Source: an uncultured Nitrososphaerales archaeon (GTDB lineage Archaea; Thermoproteota; Nitrososphaeria; Nitrososphaerales; Nitrososphaeraceae). From it: DNA of 64,000 nucleotides. The stretch is from positions 64,001 through 128,000 of the forward strand of contig CAVOHZ010000006.1 of the NCBI GenBank assembly GCA_963695855.1, read 5' to 3'. This document shows, one piece after another, positions 23,039-50,522 of the stretch. The notes under the pieces were generated by a model. That model had not been told where the DNA came from. It was given only the letters and a program-made list of their open reading frames with translations, and ran no database searches. The position numbers and the translations under genes are program-made. The number at the start of each line of letters is the position of its first letter. Position 1 is the first letter of the stretch.

Positions 23039-24942
23039 TTCTCTATTACAATTTTTCCTGATTAAATGAATTTAAAAAGACATGTTCTCTAAAATACACT
23101 AACTTATCAGAAATTATTGAACGATGCCTGTAATTTGTTCATTCTAATATTCGTAACTTCGAGATTTTATTTTTTTATCGGGAGGGGAATTCAAACCTTT
23201 ATTCATAAAATATGCGTTCTACATTGTAGTATTAAAACATTTAACATCAGTTAAATGGAATGTTAAAATTTTAGTGTTGATTTCATTTAAAATATTCCTA
23301 AAATATGAATTTATAAATAATACGTAACTAATTGAAGATTTTCATAGATACGATCCAGTCAAATATAAAAATTGCATCAAGATTCTATTGAGATCTATTT
23401 TTGACTATATATAGGAATATAGAAATCATATGGATTTGTATATGAAGGAAACACACACTTTTGTAGTTTTACTGAATGATTATCAATTCTGTAACAAATC
23501 TACGTACATATTAGTAAATTAGTTCAGTTAAACAATAGAATATATAATTATTGGTGAACTATTTATAGTAATATGATTATTTATAATAATATCATTATTA
23601 TTAAATAATTAATTGGTAAATGGTAAATTGTTTATATTGTACAAAAATTCAGTTCGAAAAACTGAGAATGTCAAATTTGTTTTAATTGCCTCTTTTGTTT
23701 CTTGCTTATTAATTCTATCCTATATAATAACGTCCATTTCATCACAAGAAAAAAATGATCAAATGACCAAATTTATTCAAACTATTTCAGATTCTATAAT
23801 TTTTATCTTTTCGCCAGTAAAAACACTAGATGAGATAGATTACGATCCATCTGACTCTTAAGGTCTCAGTCTATATTGGAAATCAGTTAACAGAATATTA
23901 ATTATGATCTATGATGAAAAAGATAAAGCAATCGCTCTTTTTGAAAAATATTTCGGTCAAGATTAAAGCTATATAGTATAGACTAAAGATGTATTTACTT
24001 TAACTACATATCCTCCTGATAGTTGGTGTACAAGCGTTCTTCGAAAGTTTAGATGGAATAGGAAGAATAATGTGATGTGTCAATATCGTCAGTCTTATAA
24101 CATAAAGAAGGACGGGGATTACCGGTTATAATAGAAGTACGTTAGTAAGGAATGTGAAAGAAGGTTGAAAGACAAAACAGGTAACGTATACTCTTATTCA
24201 CATATGCCACTGAATATATGGTTTTTTGGTAAAATATCTATACTTTGTACTCTGGCTTGGATGTTCAATAAGATTCATCATTCGAGTAAGTTGTATACTC
24301 TTCAAGATGATACAGATTTATCAAAATAGTTATTGCAAAAATATCATCATCGTCATTACTATCTTCTTCTCACTCTACTAAACTTGGGTGGCGATGTTGA
24401 AGTCGATGAACTCTATCAAAGCAGGATTTAAACGTAAATAATACCATGATGATACACTAAAATCAGAAGTAAAACCTAGATTACGGCGCCTCAAACCATA
24501 GAAAGATTAGAATGATTCCATTATGTTAGTGGGATTGTCAAAAAAATTTATTGGTGCATACGAATTAGATTAGTTAATTCTTGCTCTAATGATGAGTTTG
24601 ATGTTAACCGGACAAGAAATTTTCTCACTAAAAAAAATATACTTAAATAAAAAGAAATTAAGCAAAAAAATAAATAAATAAAAAAATAAATAAATAAAAA
24701 AAATATCCAATTTTTACTTTAAAATTTTTTAATTTCAGTGTTTATGTGAATATCTAGTTTCTAAAACAGGTATTGAAATTTTTTTAAATAGCAACAATTT
24801 GTAAAGATGAGGTGCAAGGTTCTCGAATAGAACCTCGGAACGTTGTTGATCAAACGTAGTTCCATATTTTAATAAAACTATTAATTTAATAACTATACCT
24901 TGATATTTCAAGACTCTTTTCAATAAACACAGATATAAGTAA

Positions 24943-25227
24943 ATGTTGTATTATAGAAACACAATGTCCGATAATATTGAGAAAAGGACAGATTTACTTA
25001 CACCACAATTATTGAAAACTCCAGTAGGTAAAAAAGTTACATATGAATTCCTAAAATCCTTATCGGGAGGATTTCCACTTGACGATGCGTTGCAGAAGGC
25101 AAATGCAATTGCACAGCAAGACGGTTCCTTATTACCATTTCAAATCTCTTTTATTCTAGACTTGTTAAATATTTTGGGTCCTACAGTTATTAAATTTTTT
25201 AGCGATTTTAAAAATAAAAGAAACTAA
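24943..25227 (+). CDS. Hypothetical protein
   Basis: Open frame with protein-like composition; start may be ATG at 24964. Confidence 0.45.
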   Translation: MLYYRNTMSDNIEKRTDLLTPQLLKTPVGKKVTYEFLKSLSGGFPLDDALQKANAIAQQDGSLLPFQISFILDLLNILGPTVIKFFSDFKNKRN

Positions 25228-25859
25228 TTATTTTACTTATATTGGACATTAAAATTTGGATTAAGGACAAACTTAAACTTTAAAAAGAAGCTTATTGCAA
25301 TAATATATCTAAAAAAAATAAATTCATCCCATAGTACCAGATAACGAAGTAACTCAACTACAGCCTTTAGTGAATAAGCTGAACGTGGTAACTGGTCTAT
25401 CGACTGAACTTATGGCCAATTCAATTTTAAAGAGTGATAATAAACATATATTGATTGATATCAATAGAGATGGAACCGTATGGGTTAAACGCAACTCATT
25501 GAATACGTGAACATCCAGTTAGTTGACAGTATATATAGACGTTCACTTCCGACCCCCCAAGAACTACTTGAGGGATAGTATATTATATGACCAATTTATA
25601 ATATAAATTTATTATTTATAGACTGAATACTTAGAAGTGTTGCGTTTGACGAAGTAATCTCTATATAGATATTTCATGTCTTGCCTAACTTTAATACAAT
25701 TCATGGCGAGTGTTGCATGTTGCGTGTCGCCGGGCCTACTCTGGCCCTATTTGGCAATATGGTCATAATTGGTCTTCTTTATGTATCTCTCATATCGTAA
25801 ATAATTCCTGTTCTCTGCTACTTTCTACAAGAGAACCATAAAAACACTTCGCTAACACA

Positions 25860-25881
25860 TTGGGCCCAGAGGGATTTGAAC
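25860..25881. repeat. att site (copy of tRNA-Arg 3' end)
   Basis: ttgggcccagagggatttgaac, identical to 50391..50412. Confidence 0.9.
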
Positions 25882-26259: not shown

Positions 26260-26981
26260 TCATAGCAGCATCTTTGCTAACCCCAAGCAACGTCGCAGTT
26301 TAGAAAATACAAGTTTTACACCATATTTCAGTAGCAATGGTCTGAGAGAAGACATTATCTTTGCTTCATCAGGTTTATGATGCGCTCCTGATGATTCAAC
26401 TACAGGTTTATGTAATGCACAAACAATGTTTCTATAACCTGCGGTCTTCGCCTGGGCTAACCCCTGTTCTATCTCCTTTGCTGTTGAAGGACCTTCCGTA
26501 TCAATAAATACAACAGCCAGGCCCCTGTTAACAGGATGCATGAATGTCCATTTACTTTGACCGAATGCTCCAAGATAATCATCTCCATCATGGTTTCCTA
26601 TTGCTCCCTTAAACTTTCCCTTGTACGGCGCAAGGTGACCACTAATCCATGACGAACCGCTACCGCTGTAAGCATAATCTCCCATACCTATGACAAAGCT
26701 TACTCCGTGTTTCTGCATATTTGCTACCGTCTTCTGTGTCTGGCTGCTCTTATCCCAATCACCCGCTGCTCCTTTACATTTCCTGCCATAGGCGCATTTC
26801 CTACTGGAGCTGGTCCTGCAGGACCTATAGGTAATCCTCCTCCAGGTTGGGAAAGAGGAATCTTTGAACCTATACCATGAAGTATCTGGTCAATACCCTG
26901 ACCTGGAAAGAATTTATTATAAAGAATATAACGGATAAATGCTATAGCTCCAAAGGTTATTATGGAATTTACTGCTGACAT
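26260..26981 (-). pseudogene. Membrane-anchored metallophosphoesterase, frameshifted and 3'-truncated
   Basis: N-terminal TM and Pro/Gly linker (26724..26981); frameshift near 26772 into GAAGDWD...GMGDYAY...GNHD...HKP; final GHxH motif missing. Confidence 0.75.
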
Positions 26982-27055
26982 TATTAGCGAACCATGCTAG
27001 GATTAAAAAATTGTAAAATAAACTTTTATTAATTAGCAGAAGAAATTTATTATAT

Positions 27056-27265
27056 ATGACGATGTATCCAGAGTCAATTGACGATATTTGGGTAAATCAT
27101 AATGAATCGTTTACATGTGACAATTGGTACTGCAGGAAGGAATTTAATGAAGGAAAAATCGATATGGCGAATAAGAGAAAATTATGTATTAACTGTTACA
27201 GACAATTTATGAGTTATGAGTTGAACAAGTTTGAATTTGTACAGGATTTTAAAGGTCATAAATAA
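27056..27265 (+). CDS. Small Cys4 zinc-finger protein (copy 1)
   Basis: CDNWYC...CINC; highly similar to 47623..47835. Confidence 0.75.
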   Translation: MTMYPESIDDIWVNHNESFTCDNWYCRKEFNEGKIDMANKRKLCINCYRQFMSYELNKFEFVQDFKGHK

Positions 27266-27321
27266 TTAACGAGTCATTAGATAAGGATTGTAATTGTAAT
27301 AATCGTAATTCATCCTGTTCA

Positions 27322-27716
27322 ATCTTCTGTTAAAAGACCATGATGTTTGACGAAATGCGCCGATACTTAAATATTCACTTGCACTATCATGGTTTCCTAA
27401 TGCAGCTATTGCATCCTTACCGTTGATTGGTTTCATTACCTGGGTCCACCATTGCTTAGGATTTTGTTGATAACCAAAATCTCCTGCTATCAGAATAATA
27501 TTGGGACTACCAGAAGCAAGATTCTGCGCTGTTTGTGAATTTTGAGATATATCGCCAACCACATTAAATGTAAATGCTGAAAGTCCAGAATATGAACCTG
27601 GAATATTACTAGCTGATACTCTTTGTTCCTGTTTAAGATTAATTTTGGGAAGAATATTAGTAATCAAAAAATAACCAAATAACCCTACTGCGCCAATAGT
27701 AAGGAGAGAATCCATT
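27322..27716 (-). pseudogene. Second membrane-anchored metallophosphoesterase, truncated
   Basis: MDSLLTIGAVGLFGYFL TM; VVGDIS, AGDFGY, LGNHD motifs; family similarity stops at the duplicated-module junction near 27322. Confidence 0.7.
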
Positions 27717-27986
27717 TCACCGAAATTATTATCAAACCAATAACCAAAAATTAACAACATAAACTTTTAGGTCAAAAAAAAGAAAGAGAGGTTTCGACAA
27801 AAAGAAATAATGATGTATTATATCAGTGTGAATAGATTTTGAAAATAGTAAGTATAATAACAAATAATAGCATATAATTATTTGATTTTCATAGTTCTTC
27901 TTAATAAAACAATACTTTTTAATTTGCTTAATAAAATAAAATAAAGATTAATAAATATATAATATAAAAAATACCATAGATTATTA

Positions 27987-39057: not shown

Positions 39058-40230
39058 ATAAGTCAAGTGTCATCATGAATGTCGTTACACCATCTTCCAA
39101 ATCTCTTATCCAGATATTCTGATATTGCATCTTTTTGTTCTTCTATATTGGTATAGAATCTATTTGCACACACATCTGATTTTATCTTCTGGTTTACTTT
39201 TCTCTCATTTGGATTAAGGTATGGCGCCCTCTTTGGAAGGTGTATTATACTGAGCCAGTCTTTTTTCTGTCCATTGATATATTTTTTTGTCATCTTGCTT
39301 AGGTGAAATGAAGCGTTATCCCATACCAGTACAATTCTTTTCCAACCATTATTTTTCATTACATGTATCTTGAGATTCTCTAAATGGTTTATAGCATTGG
39401 TGGAATTTGATCTGTCATAGAAATCATACAACAGATTCTGTTCAGGCCATAGCATGGATATGTACATTGAGAATTTCTTTCTACTACCGTTATGCCTAAT
39501 TTTTTGTTGTTCACCTTCAAAACTCATTGACTTTCTTATACATGGCTTCTGTGTTACTATAGTTTCATCTTCAAAGACCAACATCACTTTCTTTTTTTGA
39601 GAGCTGATGCTACTTGTTTGTAGTTCTTTATCTGTTTCTTTCCCTCTTCATAATCAGCTCCATGTTCAAGTTCAAGCTTGGGTCTCTTACATCTGATACC
39701 CATGTCCTTCAGTATCCTTTGAAGGTGTTTGAAACTGATTGGAATGTCAAGTTCTTCTGTAAGACACTTTGCCAGTGACCTCAGACTCCAGGTGTTTCTG
39801 ATGTAACCAAAAATATTGGGATTGTTAAAAAGTACAGAAAGTATAGTCTCTCTATCCTCATCTGTTATACGGAATTTTGTACCACCTGGTTTCCTTATCT
39901 CCAATCCTTTTGTTCCTATCTGGAGATATGCCGATATCCATCTTTGAACTGACCTGATACTGACACCATGTTCCTTCCTTTGCTATATCTGCAAAAGTTC
40001 TACCGTTGCTCTTCTGAAGTATTGCCATTAATCTGCGATAATGCTTCTTGTCGGTACTATATTTCATCAACGACTTTAGACTGTTCTTCTGTCCTGTGGT
40101 GAGGTTGAGTTTGGTAGTAGAACCATGGTACATAGAATTATGATATTCAGGATACCTTAAGCTTTACCTATTCAATAATTTAGACCTGTTAGTTAAAAGG
40201 ATATGACATTAACCAAGCCACTTGACTTAT
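39058..40230 (-). mobile_element. IS630-family element, transposase in three frames
   Basis: Inverted core ataagtcaagtg (39058-39069) / cacttgacttat (40219-40230); HTH (WSLRSLA) and DDE (FEDET, WDNASFH, PYLNPNE); A7G slippery site near 39592 and an extra frameshift near 39975; true ends may extend about 12 bp further. Confidence 0.85.
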
Positions 40231-46261: not shown

Positions 46262-46972
46262 TTAAAGCAATCTTACAATTGCAAAACCAATTATAAAGCC
46301 CAAGATTGCACCAAAAGTAGGAAGCCACTTTCTGTCTTTATGTGCTTTAGGTATCATATCATAAAAGAGCATATAAAAAATACCTCCAGCAGATAATGCG
46401 AATATCAGTCCTATCATATAATGTAATCCTTGTAAAAAAAATAATCCTATTAATCCAAGAATAACAGGAATTATAGATATAACACCAATCGCATAAAGAG
46501 CTCTTCTTGAATCCTTGAATGCTGTTTTTCCAGTTCTCATCTCTTTATACGCAGCAATACCCTCAGGAATATTTTGTATCCCAATAAGTAATGCTATTGC
46601 TAAAGCTGGACCAGCTGCTATTGAAGCTCCTATAGCTAAAGATTCAGGTAGTGTATCTAAACCAATACCAATTAGTATATCCGCTCCTCCACCTTTACGT
46701 GTAGCTATCACATCAGCAATTGTAAATATGATAGAGCCAAAAATGAAAAATAAAAATGTTTGAATTACTCCAATTGATTTTTCTGCCTGAATTACCATTC
46801 CAAATATAGCAGCAGATATTAAAATGCCTGCTCCAAATGCAGTTAAAAATAAAATAACGGATGTGGAAAAATGTACATACTTTCCAATTATTGCACCAAT
46901 AAATGAAGTTCCACCAGCAATTAATGTGATACCAATGACCATGAAAATATCAGTAAATGAAATAGCAGACAT
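46262..46972 (-). CDS. ZIP family metal transporter (GufA/ZupT-like)
   Basis: AFGAGILI, LDTLPESLAIG, IQNIPEG, AGGIFYM..DMIPKAH. Confidence 0.88.
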   Translation of the reverse strand: MSAISFTDIFMVIGITLIAGGTSFIGAIIGKYVHFSTSVILFLTAFGAGILISAAIFGMVIQAEKSIGVIQTFLFFIFGSIIFTIADVIATRKGGGADILIGIGLDTLPESLAIGASIAAGPALAIALLIGIQNIPEGIAAYKEMRTGKTAFKDSRRALYAIGVISIIPVILGLIGLFFLQGLHYMIGLIFALSAGGIFYMLFYDMIPKAHKDRKWLPTFGAILGFIIGFAIVRLL

Positions 46973-47337
46973 CTTATTCTAATAATTCAAATTAATATTA
47001 TATTATAAATTTAATTGGAAATAGTTTTCAAGTTAAAATTTACTAATCTATTTTTAGGTTATGATTTTACTTGATAACTTTTATCAAGAAATTATAGTCT
47101 AATGTGTTAGTAAAGAAGATAATATTAAAGATTTATGTTTAAATTTTGATATCTTCTCACGAGATAATAATGCCTTTATTTTATGAAAATACATTTGAGA
47201 ATTTCAATCCTTGAGCGGGAACATTATGCTCGCTTCCAATCCAACTGATTGATTTAGTCATAAGTTAAAATTCGACTATTATCAAGAAATAAACTTTTTG
47301 ATATTTTTAGTTCCAAAATTCGGTTTATAGTTTTCAT

Positions 47338-47565
47338 CTCGTAATCCTATAATAGTTCTATTAAAACTGATCCCATATAGACAAATATCCAGCAGTAGCA
47401 ACACTTCCAATCCTATAATAGTTCGTTTAAAACTATATTTCGAATTTACATTTGCGTAGCTGAATCTTGCTTTAAATCCTATAATAGTTCGATTAAAACT
47501 ACAGTTATGACCTTAAACTCTATGTCTTTAACCTCCTTTCAATCCTATAACAGTTCGATTAAAAC
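47338..47565 (-). CRISPR. Orphan CRISPR mini-array: 4 repeats (30 bp), 3 spacers (36 bp)
   Basis: Repeats at 47338-47367, 47404-47433, 47470-47499 and 47536-47565 with an exact 66-bp period; minus-strand consensus GTTTTAATCGAACTATTATAGGATTGAAAG; unique spacers; most degenerate repeat is at the left. Confidence 0.9.
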
Positions 47566-47622
47566 TTGAACACGATGAATTACGATTATTACAATTACAA
47601 TCCTTATCTAATGATTCGTTAA

Positions 47623-47835
47623 TTATTTATTTGGATCTTTAAAATCCTGTACAAATTCAAACTTGTTCAAGTCATAACTCATAAATTTGCTATAACAGTT
47701 AATACATAATTTTCTCTTATTCGCTACATCAATTTTTCCTTCGTTAAATCCCTTCCTGCAGTACCTATTGTCACATGTAAACACTTCATTATAATTTACC
47801 CAAATATCGTCAATTGACTCTGGATACATCGTCAT
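47623..47835 (-). CDS. Small Cys4 zinc-finger protein (copy 2), directly upstream of the mini-array
   Basis: CDNRYC...CINC; intact in both copies despite substitutions. Confidence 0.75.
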   Translation of the reverse strand: MTMYPESIDDIWVNYNEVFTCDNRYCRKGFNEGKIDVANKRKLCINCYSKFMSYDLNKFEFVQDFKDPNK

Positions 47836-47909
47836 ATTATAATAAATTTATCAGACCAATTAAAAAAGTTTGTCTTAGAATTTTTTAATCCTAACCCAGT
47901 TAGCTAATA

Positions 47910-48056
47910 ATGTCAGCAGTAAATTCTATAATTACTTTTGGAGCTATAGCACTTATCGGTTATATTCTTTATAATAAATTCTTTCCAGGTCAGGGTATTG
48001 ACCAGATACTTCAGGGTATAGGCTCTTATTCCTTTTGGATTAATTTTCCTAGATAA
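47910..48056 (+). pseudogene. 5' stub of the membrane-anchored metallophosphoesterase (duplicate of 26866..26981)
   Basis: MSAVNSIITFGAIALIGYILYNKFFPGQGIDQILQGIGS followed by unrelated sequence. Confidence 0.7.
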
Positions 48057-48389
48057 TGTCACACTATCTGTTTGAGTTGGATACGTATTTCTATCCCTGG
48101 TTATTAAAAGTTCTCTTTCACTATTGTTATAGTCTCTCACTATTATCTTGTGTTTATGAATTATTTTTATAACTTCTTTATAGTGTACATGACCATCGTG
48201 GCCATCACGGTTTCTGTGGTAAGGACCATCCTTTGGTAGTGGTTTGCAGTTTTTGTCTTTTGAAGGATCACATGGGTGGGGTTGTTGGTAGTGTTGTTCC
48301 TGGCTCTGTCTCATCTGCTCCTCAGGCAACACCAAAAGGACCAAAGAATTCAGAAGCACTTACATCTTCTCCAGCAGTTGTTTCAGCAG

Positions 48390-48662: not shown

Positions 48663-49058
48663 ATGAGTTCATTAGAAGCAGAAATTAAACGTAAACCTTA
48701 TACAGGAAAAGATCCAATGTCACCAGAAGAAATTCTCTCACATGAACCTACTGCTGTAAAACGAGATCCACATGATCAAATAATTGCGAAAGGAGGAAAG
48801 ACAGGGACTGATACAGAAGAAGCAAAAGAAATGTACAGAAAAAAAGGTATGACAAAAGTATATCCATCACAAGCAGAAATTAAACGTAAACCTTATACAG
48901 GAAAAGATCCAATGTCACCAGAAGAAATTCTCTCACATGAACCTACTGCTGTAAAACGAGATCCACATGATCAAATAATTGCGAAAGGAGGAAAGACAGG
49001 GACTGATACAGAAGAAGCAAAAGAAATGTACAGAAAAAAAGGTATGACAAAAGTATAG
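48663..49058 (+). CDS. Hydrophilic protein made of two identical ~62-aa units
   Basis: AEIKRKPYTGKDPMSPEEILSHEPTAVKRD...GMTKV twice; 195-bp period. Confidence 0.7.
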   Translation: MSSLEAEIKRKPYTGKDPMSPEEILSHEPTAVKRDPHDQIIAKGGKTGTDTEEAKEMYRKKGMTKVYPSQAEIKRKPYTGKDPMSPEEILSHEPTAVKRDPHDQIIAKGGKTGTDTEEAKEMYRKKGMTKV

Positions 49059-50349: not shown

Positions 50350-50391
50350 TATTGTGTTGTTTTGGGCCTATATAAGTAGACATATATGACT

Positions 50392-50466
50392 TGGGCCCAG
50401 AGGGATTTGAACCCTCGACCAACTGCTCCGCAGGCAGCCATTCTATCCAAACTGAACTATGAGCCC
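50392..50466 (-). tRNA. tRNA-Arg(GCG)
   Basis: GGGCTCA TA GTTC AGTTTGGATA GAAT G GCTGC CTGCGGA GCAGT TGGTC GAGGG TTCAAAT CCCTC TGGGCCC A folds as a cloverleaf; no intron; CCA not encoded. Confidence 0.95.
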
Positions 50467-50522
50467 ACATCTGATAATAAAACAGTATAAACATGAATAT
50501 TTATAATATATACTCACTCATT

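What the first reader, a model, noticed from the sequence alone, without database searches (positions are those of the whole stretch)
47338..47835. Cas-less CRISPR mini-array placed directly behind a small Zn-finger gene inside a tRNA-integrated element
Seen: four 30-bp repeats with three unique 36-bp spacers at an exact 66-bp period, and no cas gene anywhere in the 64 kb. On the minus strand the consensus repeat ends in ATTGAAAG. Degeneration is strongest at the left end, so the leader side is on the right. Only 57 bp separate the first repeat from the stop codon of a co-oriented 70-aa Cys4 protein, leaving no room for a normal long leader. Established: ATTGAAAN is the 8-nt handle of Cas6-processed type I/III crRNAs, and mini-arrays on archaeal viruses and other MGEs borrow host effectors. 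Inference: a 'Zn-finger + mini-array' cassette that lets the element use or regulate host CRISPR machinery, for example against competing elements or host genes. I do not know of such a cassette being described in ammonia-oxidising archaea.
Basis: partly seen in the sequence, partly recalled or inferred. Interest (0 to 1): 0.82.

Follow-up and report, generated by a model that had tools for sequence, protein, structure and literature searches.

The report
Orphan CRISPR mini-array in cas-less archaeon
This is a real but stranded four-repeat CRISPR array, most likely a decaying leftover of a type I-B system inside an inserted genomic island of an archaeon that has no cas genes, and the small zinc-finger gene beside it looks like a chance neighbour.

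Summary
There are four 30-bp repeats and three 36-bp spacers at an exact 66-bp period. The leader side lies 57 bp behind a 70-aa Cys4 ORF.

The repeat is the Nitrososphaeraceae type I-B repeat; in relative G139 it sits beside cas6-cas7-cas5-cas3-cas4-cas1-cas2.

The host genome (99.87% complete) gave no Cas1, Cas6, Cas7, RAMP, Cas3 or Cmr2. None of 24 congeners gave Cas1 or Cas7. One congener keeps a cas6 pseudogene fused to a two-repeat array.

The array lies in a ~24.5-kb island at tRNA-Arg, flanked by a 22-nt direct repeat and absent from a congener. No integrase was found.

The proposed "Zn-finger + array cassette" is not supported:
- The gene family is tiny: 2 of 201 family genomes and 6 protein clusters.
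- It shows little purifying selection.
- A paralogue 20 kb away keeps the same 57 bp but has no array.

Three of the four repeats carry mutations in the 8-nt handle, and no protospacer was found.

My best reading is a relic orphan array that is inert in this host. Three things stay unexplained: spacer 1 is absent from an environmental copy, orthologous orphan arrays share no spacers, and homology breaks fall exactly at repeat edges.

The parts
47536..47565 (-). CRISPR repeat R1 (leader-proximal), 1 mismatch to the family consensus
47500..47535 (-). Spacer 1 (36 nt). Present in the C6 and C5 copies, absent from the environmental copy L071
47470..47499 (-). Repeat R2; handle mutated to ATTTAAAG
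47434..47469 (-). Spacer 2 (36 nt)
47404..47433 (-). Repeat R3; two mismatches, handle ATTGGAAG
47368..47403 (-). Spacer 3 (36 nt)
47338..47367 (-). Terminal degenerate repeat R4 (5 mismatches)
47123..47337 (-). Trailer. It is homologous over at least 120 nt to the trailer of the other orphan array type (C2/C4 and G112). It holds an 11-nt repeat remnant AGGATTGAAAT at 47201-47211, so it is probably older, decayed array
47566..47622 (-). 57-bp leader-side segment. It is unlike the TATA-bearing leader shared by cas-linked arrays of relatives. The same 57 bp follows the paralogue at 27266-27322, where no array is present
47623..47835 (-). 70-aa Cys4 ORF (zf70); no Pfam, PHROG or PADLOC family
27056..27322 (+). 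Paralogue of zf70 (88% aa identity) plus the same 57 bp. It abuts a truncated Metallophos ORF, not a repeat
25860..25881 (+). 22-nt copy of the tRNA-Arg 3' end; candidate distal att site of the island
50391..50467 (-). tRNA-Arg (GCG). Its 3' 22 nt (50391-50412) form the proximal att-like repeat

Best explanation
This is a true CRISPR array of the Nitrososphaeraceae type I-B repeat family that has been stranded without cas genes. It lies in a ~24.5-kb, IS-riddled island inserted at tRNA-Arg. It is one of several orphan mini-arrays and solo repeats in this genome. Inference: all descend from type I-B loci, which in this family are known to ride on integrated elements, and the cas operon was later lost. 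In this host the array cannot give immunity. If it is transcribed, by read-through from the 70-aa ORF or from the 57-bp segment, the transcript would stay unprocessed, because there is no Cas6 or Cascade. Its repeats are drifting. The junction with the Cys4 ORF is a lineage-specific rearrangement joint and not a functional cassette. Shown: the identity of the repeat, the absence of cas genes, the island, the paralogue without an array, and the cas6 pseudogene in a congener. Inferred: the history of cas loss, present-day inertness, and that the neighbour is incidental.
For: Repeat family and type:
- The repeat (<=3 mismatches) occurs in 55 of 201 family genomes. Large arrays occur in G003 (91 repeats), G139 (66), G070 (65) and G079 (32).
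- In G139 it directly follows cas6, an unassigned ORF, then cas7-cas5-cas3-cas4-cas1-cas2.

Absence of cas genes:
- No cas gene was found in the host.
- Cas1 was found in 0 of 24 congeners. Cas7 was found in 0 of 25 genus genomes, host included.
- Cas6 was found in 1 of 25. That hit is a pseudogene with 2 in-frame TAA stops, is truncated at HMM position 174 of 200, and runs into a two-repeat array.
- 47 of the 55 repeat-bearing genomes have no Cas1 hit (combined).

Signs of decay:
- All four repeats differ from the consensus, and three carry changes in the 8-nt handle.
- The changes in R2-R4 abolish the weak terminal pairing seen in R1, with no compensating change.
- Between the two genomic copies (C6 and C5) the array differs at 4 of 228 positions. 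That is no better conserved than the rest of the segment to the right of the trailer, leader included (7 of 957).
- The trailer is decayed array shared with the C2/C4/G112 array type.

Leader: it is unlike the leader conserved among cas-linked arrays.

The zf70 gene:
- It occurs in 2 of 201 family genomes and in 6 protein clusters, all on contigs of 3.1 kb or less.
- pN/pS is 0.49, undefined (0 synonymous against 7 non-synonymous changes) and 0.43 in three pairs.
- The paralogue has the same 57 bp and no array.

Island.

Precedent: cas-less arrays and type I-B systems on thaumarchaeal integrated elements are described in PMC6563490 (passages read).
Against: - An environmental contig (L071) has the same ORF tail, 57 bp, array and trailer, but lacks the leader-proximal spacer 1. 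That is the pattern expected from recent polarised acquisition, although repeat-repeat deletion explains it equally well.
- The orphan array at the C4 end is syntenic with G112:C51 (94% over 6,070 bp), yet the two share no spacer. This implies spacer turnover after the species split, in a genus where I found no adaptation genes.
- R1 in L071, and most repeats in the congeners' orphan arrays, are perfect consensus, so not all of these arrays look decayed.
- Homology breaks fall exactly at repeat edges in three places (see the full report). Random decay and rearrangement do not predict this.
- Transcription could not be tested.
- The genome is in 11 contigs and contig C4 ends inside an array, so a cas locus in an assembly gap is not strictly excluded.
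Confidence: 0.62

Rival explanations
1. Dormant, portable immune memory. The array is kept on a mobile island and works in trans whenever a cas-bearing type I-B integrated element or plasmid with a compatible repeat enters the cell. That element would both process the array's crRNAs and add spacers to it.
For: Spacer 1 is polymorphic at the leader end between this genome and L071. Syntenic orphan arrays in G000 and G112 have wholly different spacers. The repeats differ by only 1-3 bases from cas-linked arrays in the family. Type I-B systems on integrated elements, and in-trans spacer insertion into cas-less arrays on such elements, are proposed for Thaumarchaeota in PMC6563490 (passages read).
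Against: No cas gene was found in the host, and none in 24 congeners apart from one cas6 pseudogene. Three of the four repeats carry handle mutations. The leader is unlike cas-linked leaders. No protospacer was found. The spacer-1 polymorphism is explained as well by deletion.
Confidence: 0.17
2. The Cys4 protein and the array form a functional unit (protein plus guide RNAs) that exploits or regulates CRISPR machinery against competitors or host genes.
For: The ORF and array are co-oriented and only 57 bp apart. The linkage is seen again in L071. In G048 the same gene module abuts a two-repeat array on its other side. The four Cys are conserved in 7 of 8 aligned sequences.
Against: L071, C5 and C6 are copies of one locus and are not independent. 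The paralogue has the identical 57 bp and no array. The family is tiny and shows no clear purifying selection. There was no family hit, and the structure model was unusable at pLDDT 43.9. There is no Cas partner in the genome, and no spacer matches the host.
Confidence: 0.06
3. An RNA decoy or regulator. The repeats act like RNA anti-CRISPRs or crRNA-like regulators, soaking up or redirecting Cas proteins of a host the island visits.
For: The array lies on an inserted island. Solo and paired degenerate repeats occur elsewhere in the genome. RNA anti-CRISPRs that mimic repeats are described in PMC10651486 (only the start of the abstract, in a search listing, was seen).
Against: There is no Cas to inhibit in this genome or genus. 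An exact 24-nt core of the repeat has 0 hits in the viral contig collection. The spacers are of full length and unique, as in an ordinary array, and are not solitary repeat units.
Confidence: 0.05

Closest known systems
Stand-alone CRISPR arrays and type I-B systems carried by integrated mobile elements of Thaumarchaeota (Krupovic et al. 2019, PMC6563490; passages read)
   Same: The phylum is the same. The array sits on an element integrated in the chromosome and has no adjacent cas genes. The repeat is related to type I-B arrays of the same group. Loss of cas genes was proposed there as the origin.
   Different: Those arrays hold 69-96 spacers, and their hosts have a matching cas-linked array that can serve them in trans. 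Here there are 3 spacers and drifting repeats. No cas gene was found in the host genome, and in 24 congeners only one cas6 pseudogene. No integrase or conjugation genes were recognised in the island.
Virus-borne mini-CRISPR arrays of Sulfolobales viruses (Medvedeva et al. 2019, PMC6858448; abstract and passages read)
   Same: A very short cas-less array on a mobile element, with repeats of the local host type.
   Different: Those arrays have 1-2 spacers. They have leaders with BRE/TATA elements resembling host leaders, hosts with active Cas, and spacers that hit sister viruses. Here the leader is unlike cas-linked leaders, there is no Cas, and no target was found.
Orphan (isolated) CRISPR arrays in general (recalled, no call)
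   Same: A regular repeat-spacer array far from any cas gene, with a degenerate terminal repeat.
   Different: Here the orphan state extends to a whole genus, with several arrays per genome.
RNA anti-CRISPRs and crRNA-like regulatory mini-arrays (PMC10651486, and bioRxiv 10.1101/2023.03.03.530964 and 10.1101/2024.10.29.618823; only titles and starts of abstracts in search listings were seen)
   Same: Repeat-derived elements outside normal arrays, often on mobile DNA.
   Different: Those act on a resident Cas system, and none is present here. The architecture here is an ordinary array and not a solitary or partly matching pseudo-spacer unit.

Membership tests
CRISPR array (type I-B repeat family of Nitrososphaeraceae) | Direct repeats of one sequence at a regular period, separated by unique spacers of similar length | tested here: met
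   4 repeats of 30 nt, period 66, 3 unique 36-nt spacers
CRISPR array (type I-B repeat family of Nitrososphaeraceae) | Repeat sequence shared with arrays that sit beside cas genes | tested here: met
   The consensus is within 1-3 mismatches of arrays in G139, G079, G003 and G070. The G139 array follows a cas6...cas1-cas2 type I-B operon
CRISPR array (type I-B repeat family of Nitrososphaeraceae) | cas genes in the locus or genome (a complete CRISPR-Cas system) | tested here: not met
   genus level
CRISPR array (type I-B repeat family of Nitrososphaeraceae) | Leader with a promoter, conserved among arrays of the type | tested here: not met
   The cas-linked leaders of G139, G079 and G014 share a TATA-bearing motif that is absent from the 57 bp here
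CRISPR array (type I-B repeat family of Nitrososphaeraceae) | Transcription and Cas6 processing into crRNA | not testable with these tools
   No RNA run holds the stretch
CRISPR array (type I-B repeat family of Nitrososphaeraceae) | Spacers match foreign DNA (protospacers) | tested here: inconclusive
   None in the own genome. None in phage or plasmid records. Spacer 1 matched none of the 237 other family genomes at <=3 mismatches. The first 22 nt of each spacer gave no exact hit in viral contigs. Spacers 2 and 3 were not searched with mismatches in relatives
MGE-borne mini-CRISPR array used in inter-element conflict | Carried on a mobile element | tested here: met
   A 22-nt att-like direct repeat and an empty site in G112. 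No integrase was found on the contig
MGE-borne mini-CRISPR array used in inter-element conflict | The host supplies matching Cas effector and adaptation proteins | tested here: not met
MGE-borne mini-CRISPR array used in inter-element conflict | Spacers target related elements | tested here: inconclusive
   No target was found
tRNA-integrated element | Direct repeat of the tRNA 3' part at the far end, and an empty site in a relative | tested here: met
tRNA-integrated element | Tyrosine or other integrase at one end | tested here: not met
   PF00589 gave 13 hits in the genome and none on contig C6. No integrase family appeared among the island ORFs scanned

The most novel reading that the evidence does not exclude
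In this cas-poor archaeal family, short orphan arrays are not dead relics. They would be mobile units of immune memory, carried on islands and even inside an IS630-type transposon (at least 11 copies in congener G138). They would be cut or joined precisely at repeat edges, and refreshed and used only when a type I-B-bearing integrated element is in the cell. That would explain the leader-end spacer polymorphism, the complete spacer turnover in syntenic orphan arrays, and the homology breaks that fall exactly at repeat boundaries.
Probability: 0.15. Interest if true: 0.72.

Novelty: new member of a known kind. Interest (0 to 1): 0.38.

Why it matters
By itself this is an ordinary orphan array, and the attractive "Zn-finger + guide" cassette does not hold up.

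The wider pattern is of some value:
- In soil ammonia-oxidising archaea the type I-B repeat is far more widespread than cas genes. It occurs in 55 of 201 genomes, against 20 of 201 with Cas1, and 47 of the 55 repeat-bearing genomes lack Cas1.
- A whole genus carries several such arrays with no working cas gene.
- Spacer content still differs between close relatives.

If these arrays are serviced in trans by visiting cas-bearing elements, CRISPR memory and CRISPR machinery would be inherited separately in these organisms. That would matter for reading virus-host links from spacers in soil metagenomes.

Tried and rejected
- Transcription. No run on record as RNA holds the stretch, so expression is untested. 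Laying the contigs of four DNA runs showed one run with the exact array. Two runs had contigs whose match stops at 47566; these are about 92% alike and look like the array-less paralogue. Nothing about RNA came from this.
- Spacer targets. There were no self-targets. In the phage and plasmid records the phage search gave only 3 chance-level hits (E 0.3-1, 34-35 nt, 12% of the query) and the plasmid search none. Spacer 1 matched none of the 237 other family genomes. Exact 22-mers of the three spacers gave 0 hits in viral contigs. A BLAST of the array against 238 family genomes was swamped by repeat hits and scored only 3 candidates per genome, so it says nothing about spacers.
- Repeat on viruses. 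A 24-nt repeat core gave 0 exact hits in viral contigs.
- Function of the 70-aa protein. There was no Pfam, PHROG or PADLOC family. The AlphaFold model had mean pLDDT 43.9, so no fold search was made. The ESM Atlas gave only unnamed clusters sharing 135-139 of 256 features.
- Rfam. No family matched in 46900-48100.
- A possible decayed repeat inside the 57-bp segment. The local alignment score was 24 against a null of 19.7 +/- 2.6, reached by 5-11% of controls. This is not significant.
- A possible reverse-oriented decayed repeat at G000 C2:97909-97938. The score was 20, reached by 7.6% of genomic 50-mers. This is not significant.
- The idea that the gene module is inserted in one split Metallophos gene. 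I rejected it because the two flanking fragments overlap in family coordinates, so they are two truncated paralogues.
Supplements of papers were not opened. The supplementary spacer tables of PMC6563490 and PMC6858448 might bear on targets.
- In print. Two searches, and a term search of PMC11559005 that found 0 mentions of CRISPR, turned up no report of orphan arrays in Nitrosocosmicus- or Nitrososphaera-like genomes beyond PMC6563490.
- The family tallies include genome G077, which is marked unpublished. No specific claim rests on it.

Full report
THE OBJECT. The window is G000:C6:64001-128000. Four 30-bp repeats start at 47338, 47404, 47470 and 47536, exactly 66 bp apart, and are separated by three unique 36-bp spacers. 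Read on the minus strand, R1 is GTTTTAATCGAACTGTTATAGGATTGAAAG. Only R1 keeps the ATTGAAAG end; R2, R3 and R4 end in ATTTAAAG, ATTGGAAG and ATTACGAG. A 70-aa ORF with four cysteines (47623-47835, minus strand) stops 57 bp before R1. The repeat folds weakly through its two ends in R1 (-4.5 kcal/mol), and the changes in R2-R4 remove that pairing without compensation. No Rfam family matches.

THE REPEAT FAMILY.
- The consensus, with up to 3 mismatches, is present in 55 of 201 genomes sampled from the same family and in 14 of 18 genera. Arrays of 32-91 repeats occur in G079, G070, G139 and G003.
- In G139 the array directly follows cas6, an unassigned ORF, then cas7, cas5, cas3, cas4, cas1 and cas2, which NCBIfam calls type I-B.
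- The cas-linked arrays of G139, G079 and G014 share a leader with a TTTATAAA-type box. The 57 bp here do not resemble it.

NO CAS GENES.
- The host genome is 3.55 Mb in 11 contigs and 99.87% complete. It gave no hit for Cas6, Cas1, RAMPs, DevR/Cas7 or Cmr2, and only sub-threshold helicases for Cas3 core.
- A tblastn with the eight G139 Cas proteins and two cas6 fragments of G048 gave only those helicases.
- In the genus, Cas1 was found in 0 of 24 genomes and Cas7 in 0 of 25, host included.
- Cas6 was found in 1 of 25. That hit, G048:C70:4829-5410, has two in-frame TAA stops, stops at HMM position 174 of 200, and runs straight into a two-repeat array. It is a visible stump of a deleted cas locus.
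- Across the family, Cas1 is in 20 of 201 genomes. Only 8 of the 55 repeat-bearing genomes have it, so 47 of 55 carry the repeat without Cas1. Many of these are incomplete assemblies. However, G032 is a single 2.99-Mb contig with an eight-repeat array and no Cas1 hit.

OTHER COPIES IN THE SAME GENOME.
- A near-identical copy sits at C5:27434-27660, with the same three spacers. It is 97.9% identical over 1,400 bp, and an IS is inserted further on.
- A second array type sits at C2:123025-123252 (four repeats; spacer 1 equals spacer 3) and at the end of contig C4.
- Solo or paired degenerate repeats sit at C6:222766, C10:824868, C10:836731-836823 and C10:1004113.
- The trailers of the two array types align over at least 120 nt beyond the terminal repeat. 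The trailer here contains an 11-nt piece of the repeat's 3' end at 47201-47211. The 'trailer' is therefore probably older, decayed array, and the two types share an ancestor.
- Between the C5 and C6 copies, the differences are 18 of 215 in the trailer, 4 of 228 in the array, 2 of 57 in the leader segment, 0 of 213 in the ORF, and 5 of 687 in the rest. The array is not specially conserved.

THE ISLAND.
- The last 22 nt of tRNA-Arg(GCG) (50391-50412) recur in direct orientation at 25860-25881.
- In congener G112, DNA matching window 24058-25333 lies 245 bp from the same tRNA, against 25 kb here. G112 has a single copy of the 22-mer.
- The segment 25882-50390 is therefore an insertion.
- It holds IS630-, IS240- and rve-type transposase genes, IS5 fragments, and GNAT, methyltransferase, Alba, Usp and ZIP genes. 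Many pieces are repeated elsewhere in the genome.
- No integrase was found. PF00589 has 13 hits in the genome and none on this contig. No phage or defence family was found near the array.

THE 70-AA GENE.
- It has no family. Its model was unusable, and the Atlas neighbours are unnamed clusters.
- It was found in 2 of 201 family genomes, G000 and G048. In a 5.8-billion-protein collection it forms 6 clusters at 68-90% identity, all on contigs of at most 3.1 kb.
- Three pairwise comparisons gave pN/pS of 0.49, 0 synonymous against 7 non-synonymous changes, and 0.43. That is little sign of constraint on few changes.
- A paralogue at 27056-27265 (88% aa identity) is followed by the same 57 bp. At the base where R1 starts in the array copy, it continues into a 3'-truncated Metallophos ORF.
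- The metagenome contig L071 repeats the ORF-57 bp-array-trailer order. It is the same locus in a near relative and is not independent evidence of linkage.

WHAT DOES NOT FIT A SIMPLE RELIC.
(a) L071 has only spacers 2 and 3, and its first repeat is perfect consensus. Spacer 1 is thus either a leader-end gain here or a repeat-repeat deletion there, and the repeat variants do not decide between these.
(b) The array at the C4 end and the array G112:C51 have flanks 94% identical over 6,070 bp, and the same odd terminal repeat and trailer, but share no spacer.
(c) Homology breaks lie exactly at the outer edge of a repeat in three places:
- At 47565/47566, the array copy against the paralogue, also seen in contigs of two metagenome runs.
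- At G048:C76 1994/1995, a two-repeat array abuts the other side of the same gene module.
- At the leader|R1 edge of G112:C51, G000 (C2:97938/97939) and G048 carry other sequence.
Recombination between direct repeats always leaves one repeat, so it cannot yield the repeat-free state. If G048's contig, which ends one base after the ORF, continues with the 57 bp and a repeat, the ~0.5-kb module would sit between two repeats like an oversized spacer. I could not test this.

VERDICT. This is a real CRISPR array of a known type, stranded in a genome and genus without working cas genes, on an inserted and heavily rearranged island. The best-supported reading is a drifting leftover that is inert in this host (0.62). 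The proposed Zn-finger cassette is unlikely (0.06). Service in trans by visiting cas-bearing elements remains possible (0.17) and would account for the spacer differences.

Papers used:
- PMC6563490 (passages): stand-alone arrays and type I-B systems on thaumarchaeal integrated elements.
- PMC6858448 (abstract and passages): virus-borne mini-arrays with host-like leaders.
- PMC10651486 and two preprints: search listings only.
- That ATTGAAAG is the usual 8-nt 5' handle of Cas6-made crRNAs is recalled and comes from no call.

Noticed in passing
L040:2808-4527 (G138:C123) and at least 10 further G138 loci (L037-L045, L047): Congener G138 holds at least 11 copies of a 1.72-kb IS630/Tc1-type element. 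It has TA flanks, 26-nt terminal inverted repeats and an extra internal copy of the left end. Its 490-bp passenger part carries two perfect consensus CRISPR repeats around one 37-38-nt spacer that is near-identical in all copies. The spacer has no other match in G138, G000, G048, G112 or G012. G000 has about 10 copies of the plain IS without the passenger, one at window 39059-40229. So a mini-array is being spread by a transposon.
   Followed up: partly
L051:3136-3825 (G048:C70:4829-5410) beside repeats at G048:C70:4745-4841: A cas6 pseudogene (TIGR01877, 64 bits, two in-frame TAA stops, C-terminus missing) runs directly into a two-repeat array. It is the only cas remnant found in the genus.
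   Followed up: partly
G000 C2:123055-123090 and 23 further sites in the genome: The first 15 nt of the repeated spacer of the C2/C4 array equal the loop and 3' arm of a terminal hairpin (CCTATC-TATTTTT-GGGATAGG) of an element present in 23 copies. After 15 nt the spacer and the element differ.
   Followed up: partly
window 48676-49057: A perfect 195-bp tandem duplication lies inside a 137-aa ORF with no family. The C5 copy of the segment has more units.
   Followed up: no
window 26260-27760: Two overlapping, truncated calcineurin-like phosphoesterase (Metallophos) fragments flank the array-less paralogue of the Cys4 gene. The genome holds many paralogues of this family, especially on contig C3.
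   Followed up: partly
G000 C10:824868-824897 and C10:836731-836823: A duplicated segment 12 kb apart ends in a repeat with a degenerate 3' end. At the second site this is followed by a 33-nt spacer and a repeat with a degenerate 5' end. About 165 nt further on there is a hairpin-bearing motif like the one in the trailer of the window's array.
   Followed up: no
L053 (G112:C51) and G000 C2 arrays: Both orphan arrays contain an internal duplicated spacer: spacer 3 equals spacer 6 in G112, and spacer 1 equals spacer 3 in C2. This points to repeat-mediated duplication inside arrays that lack cas genes.
   Followed up: no
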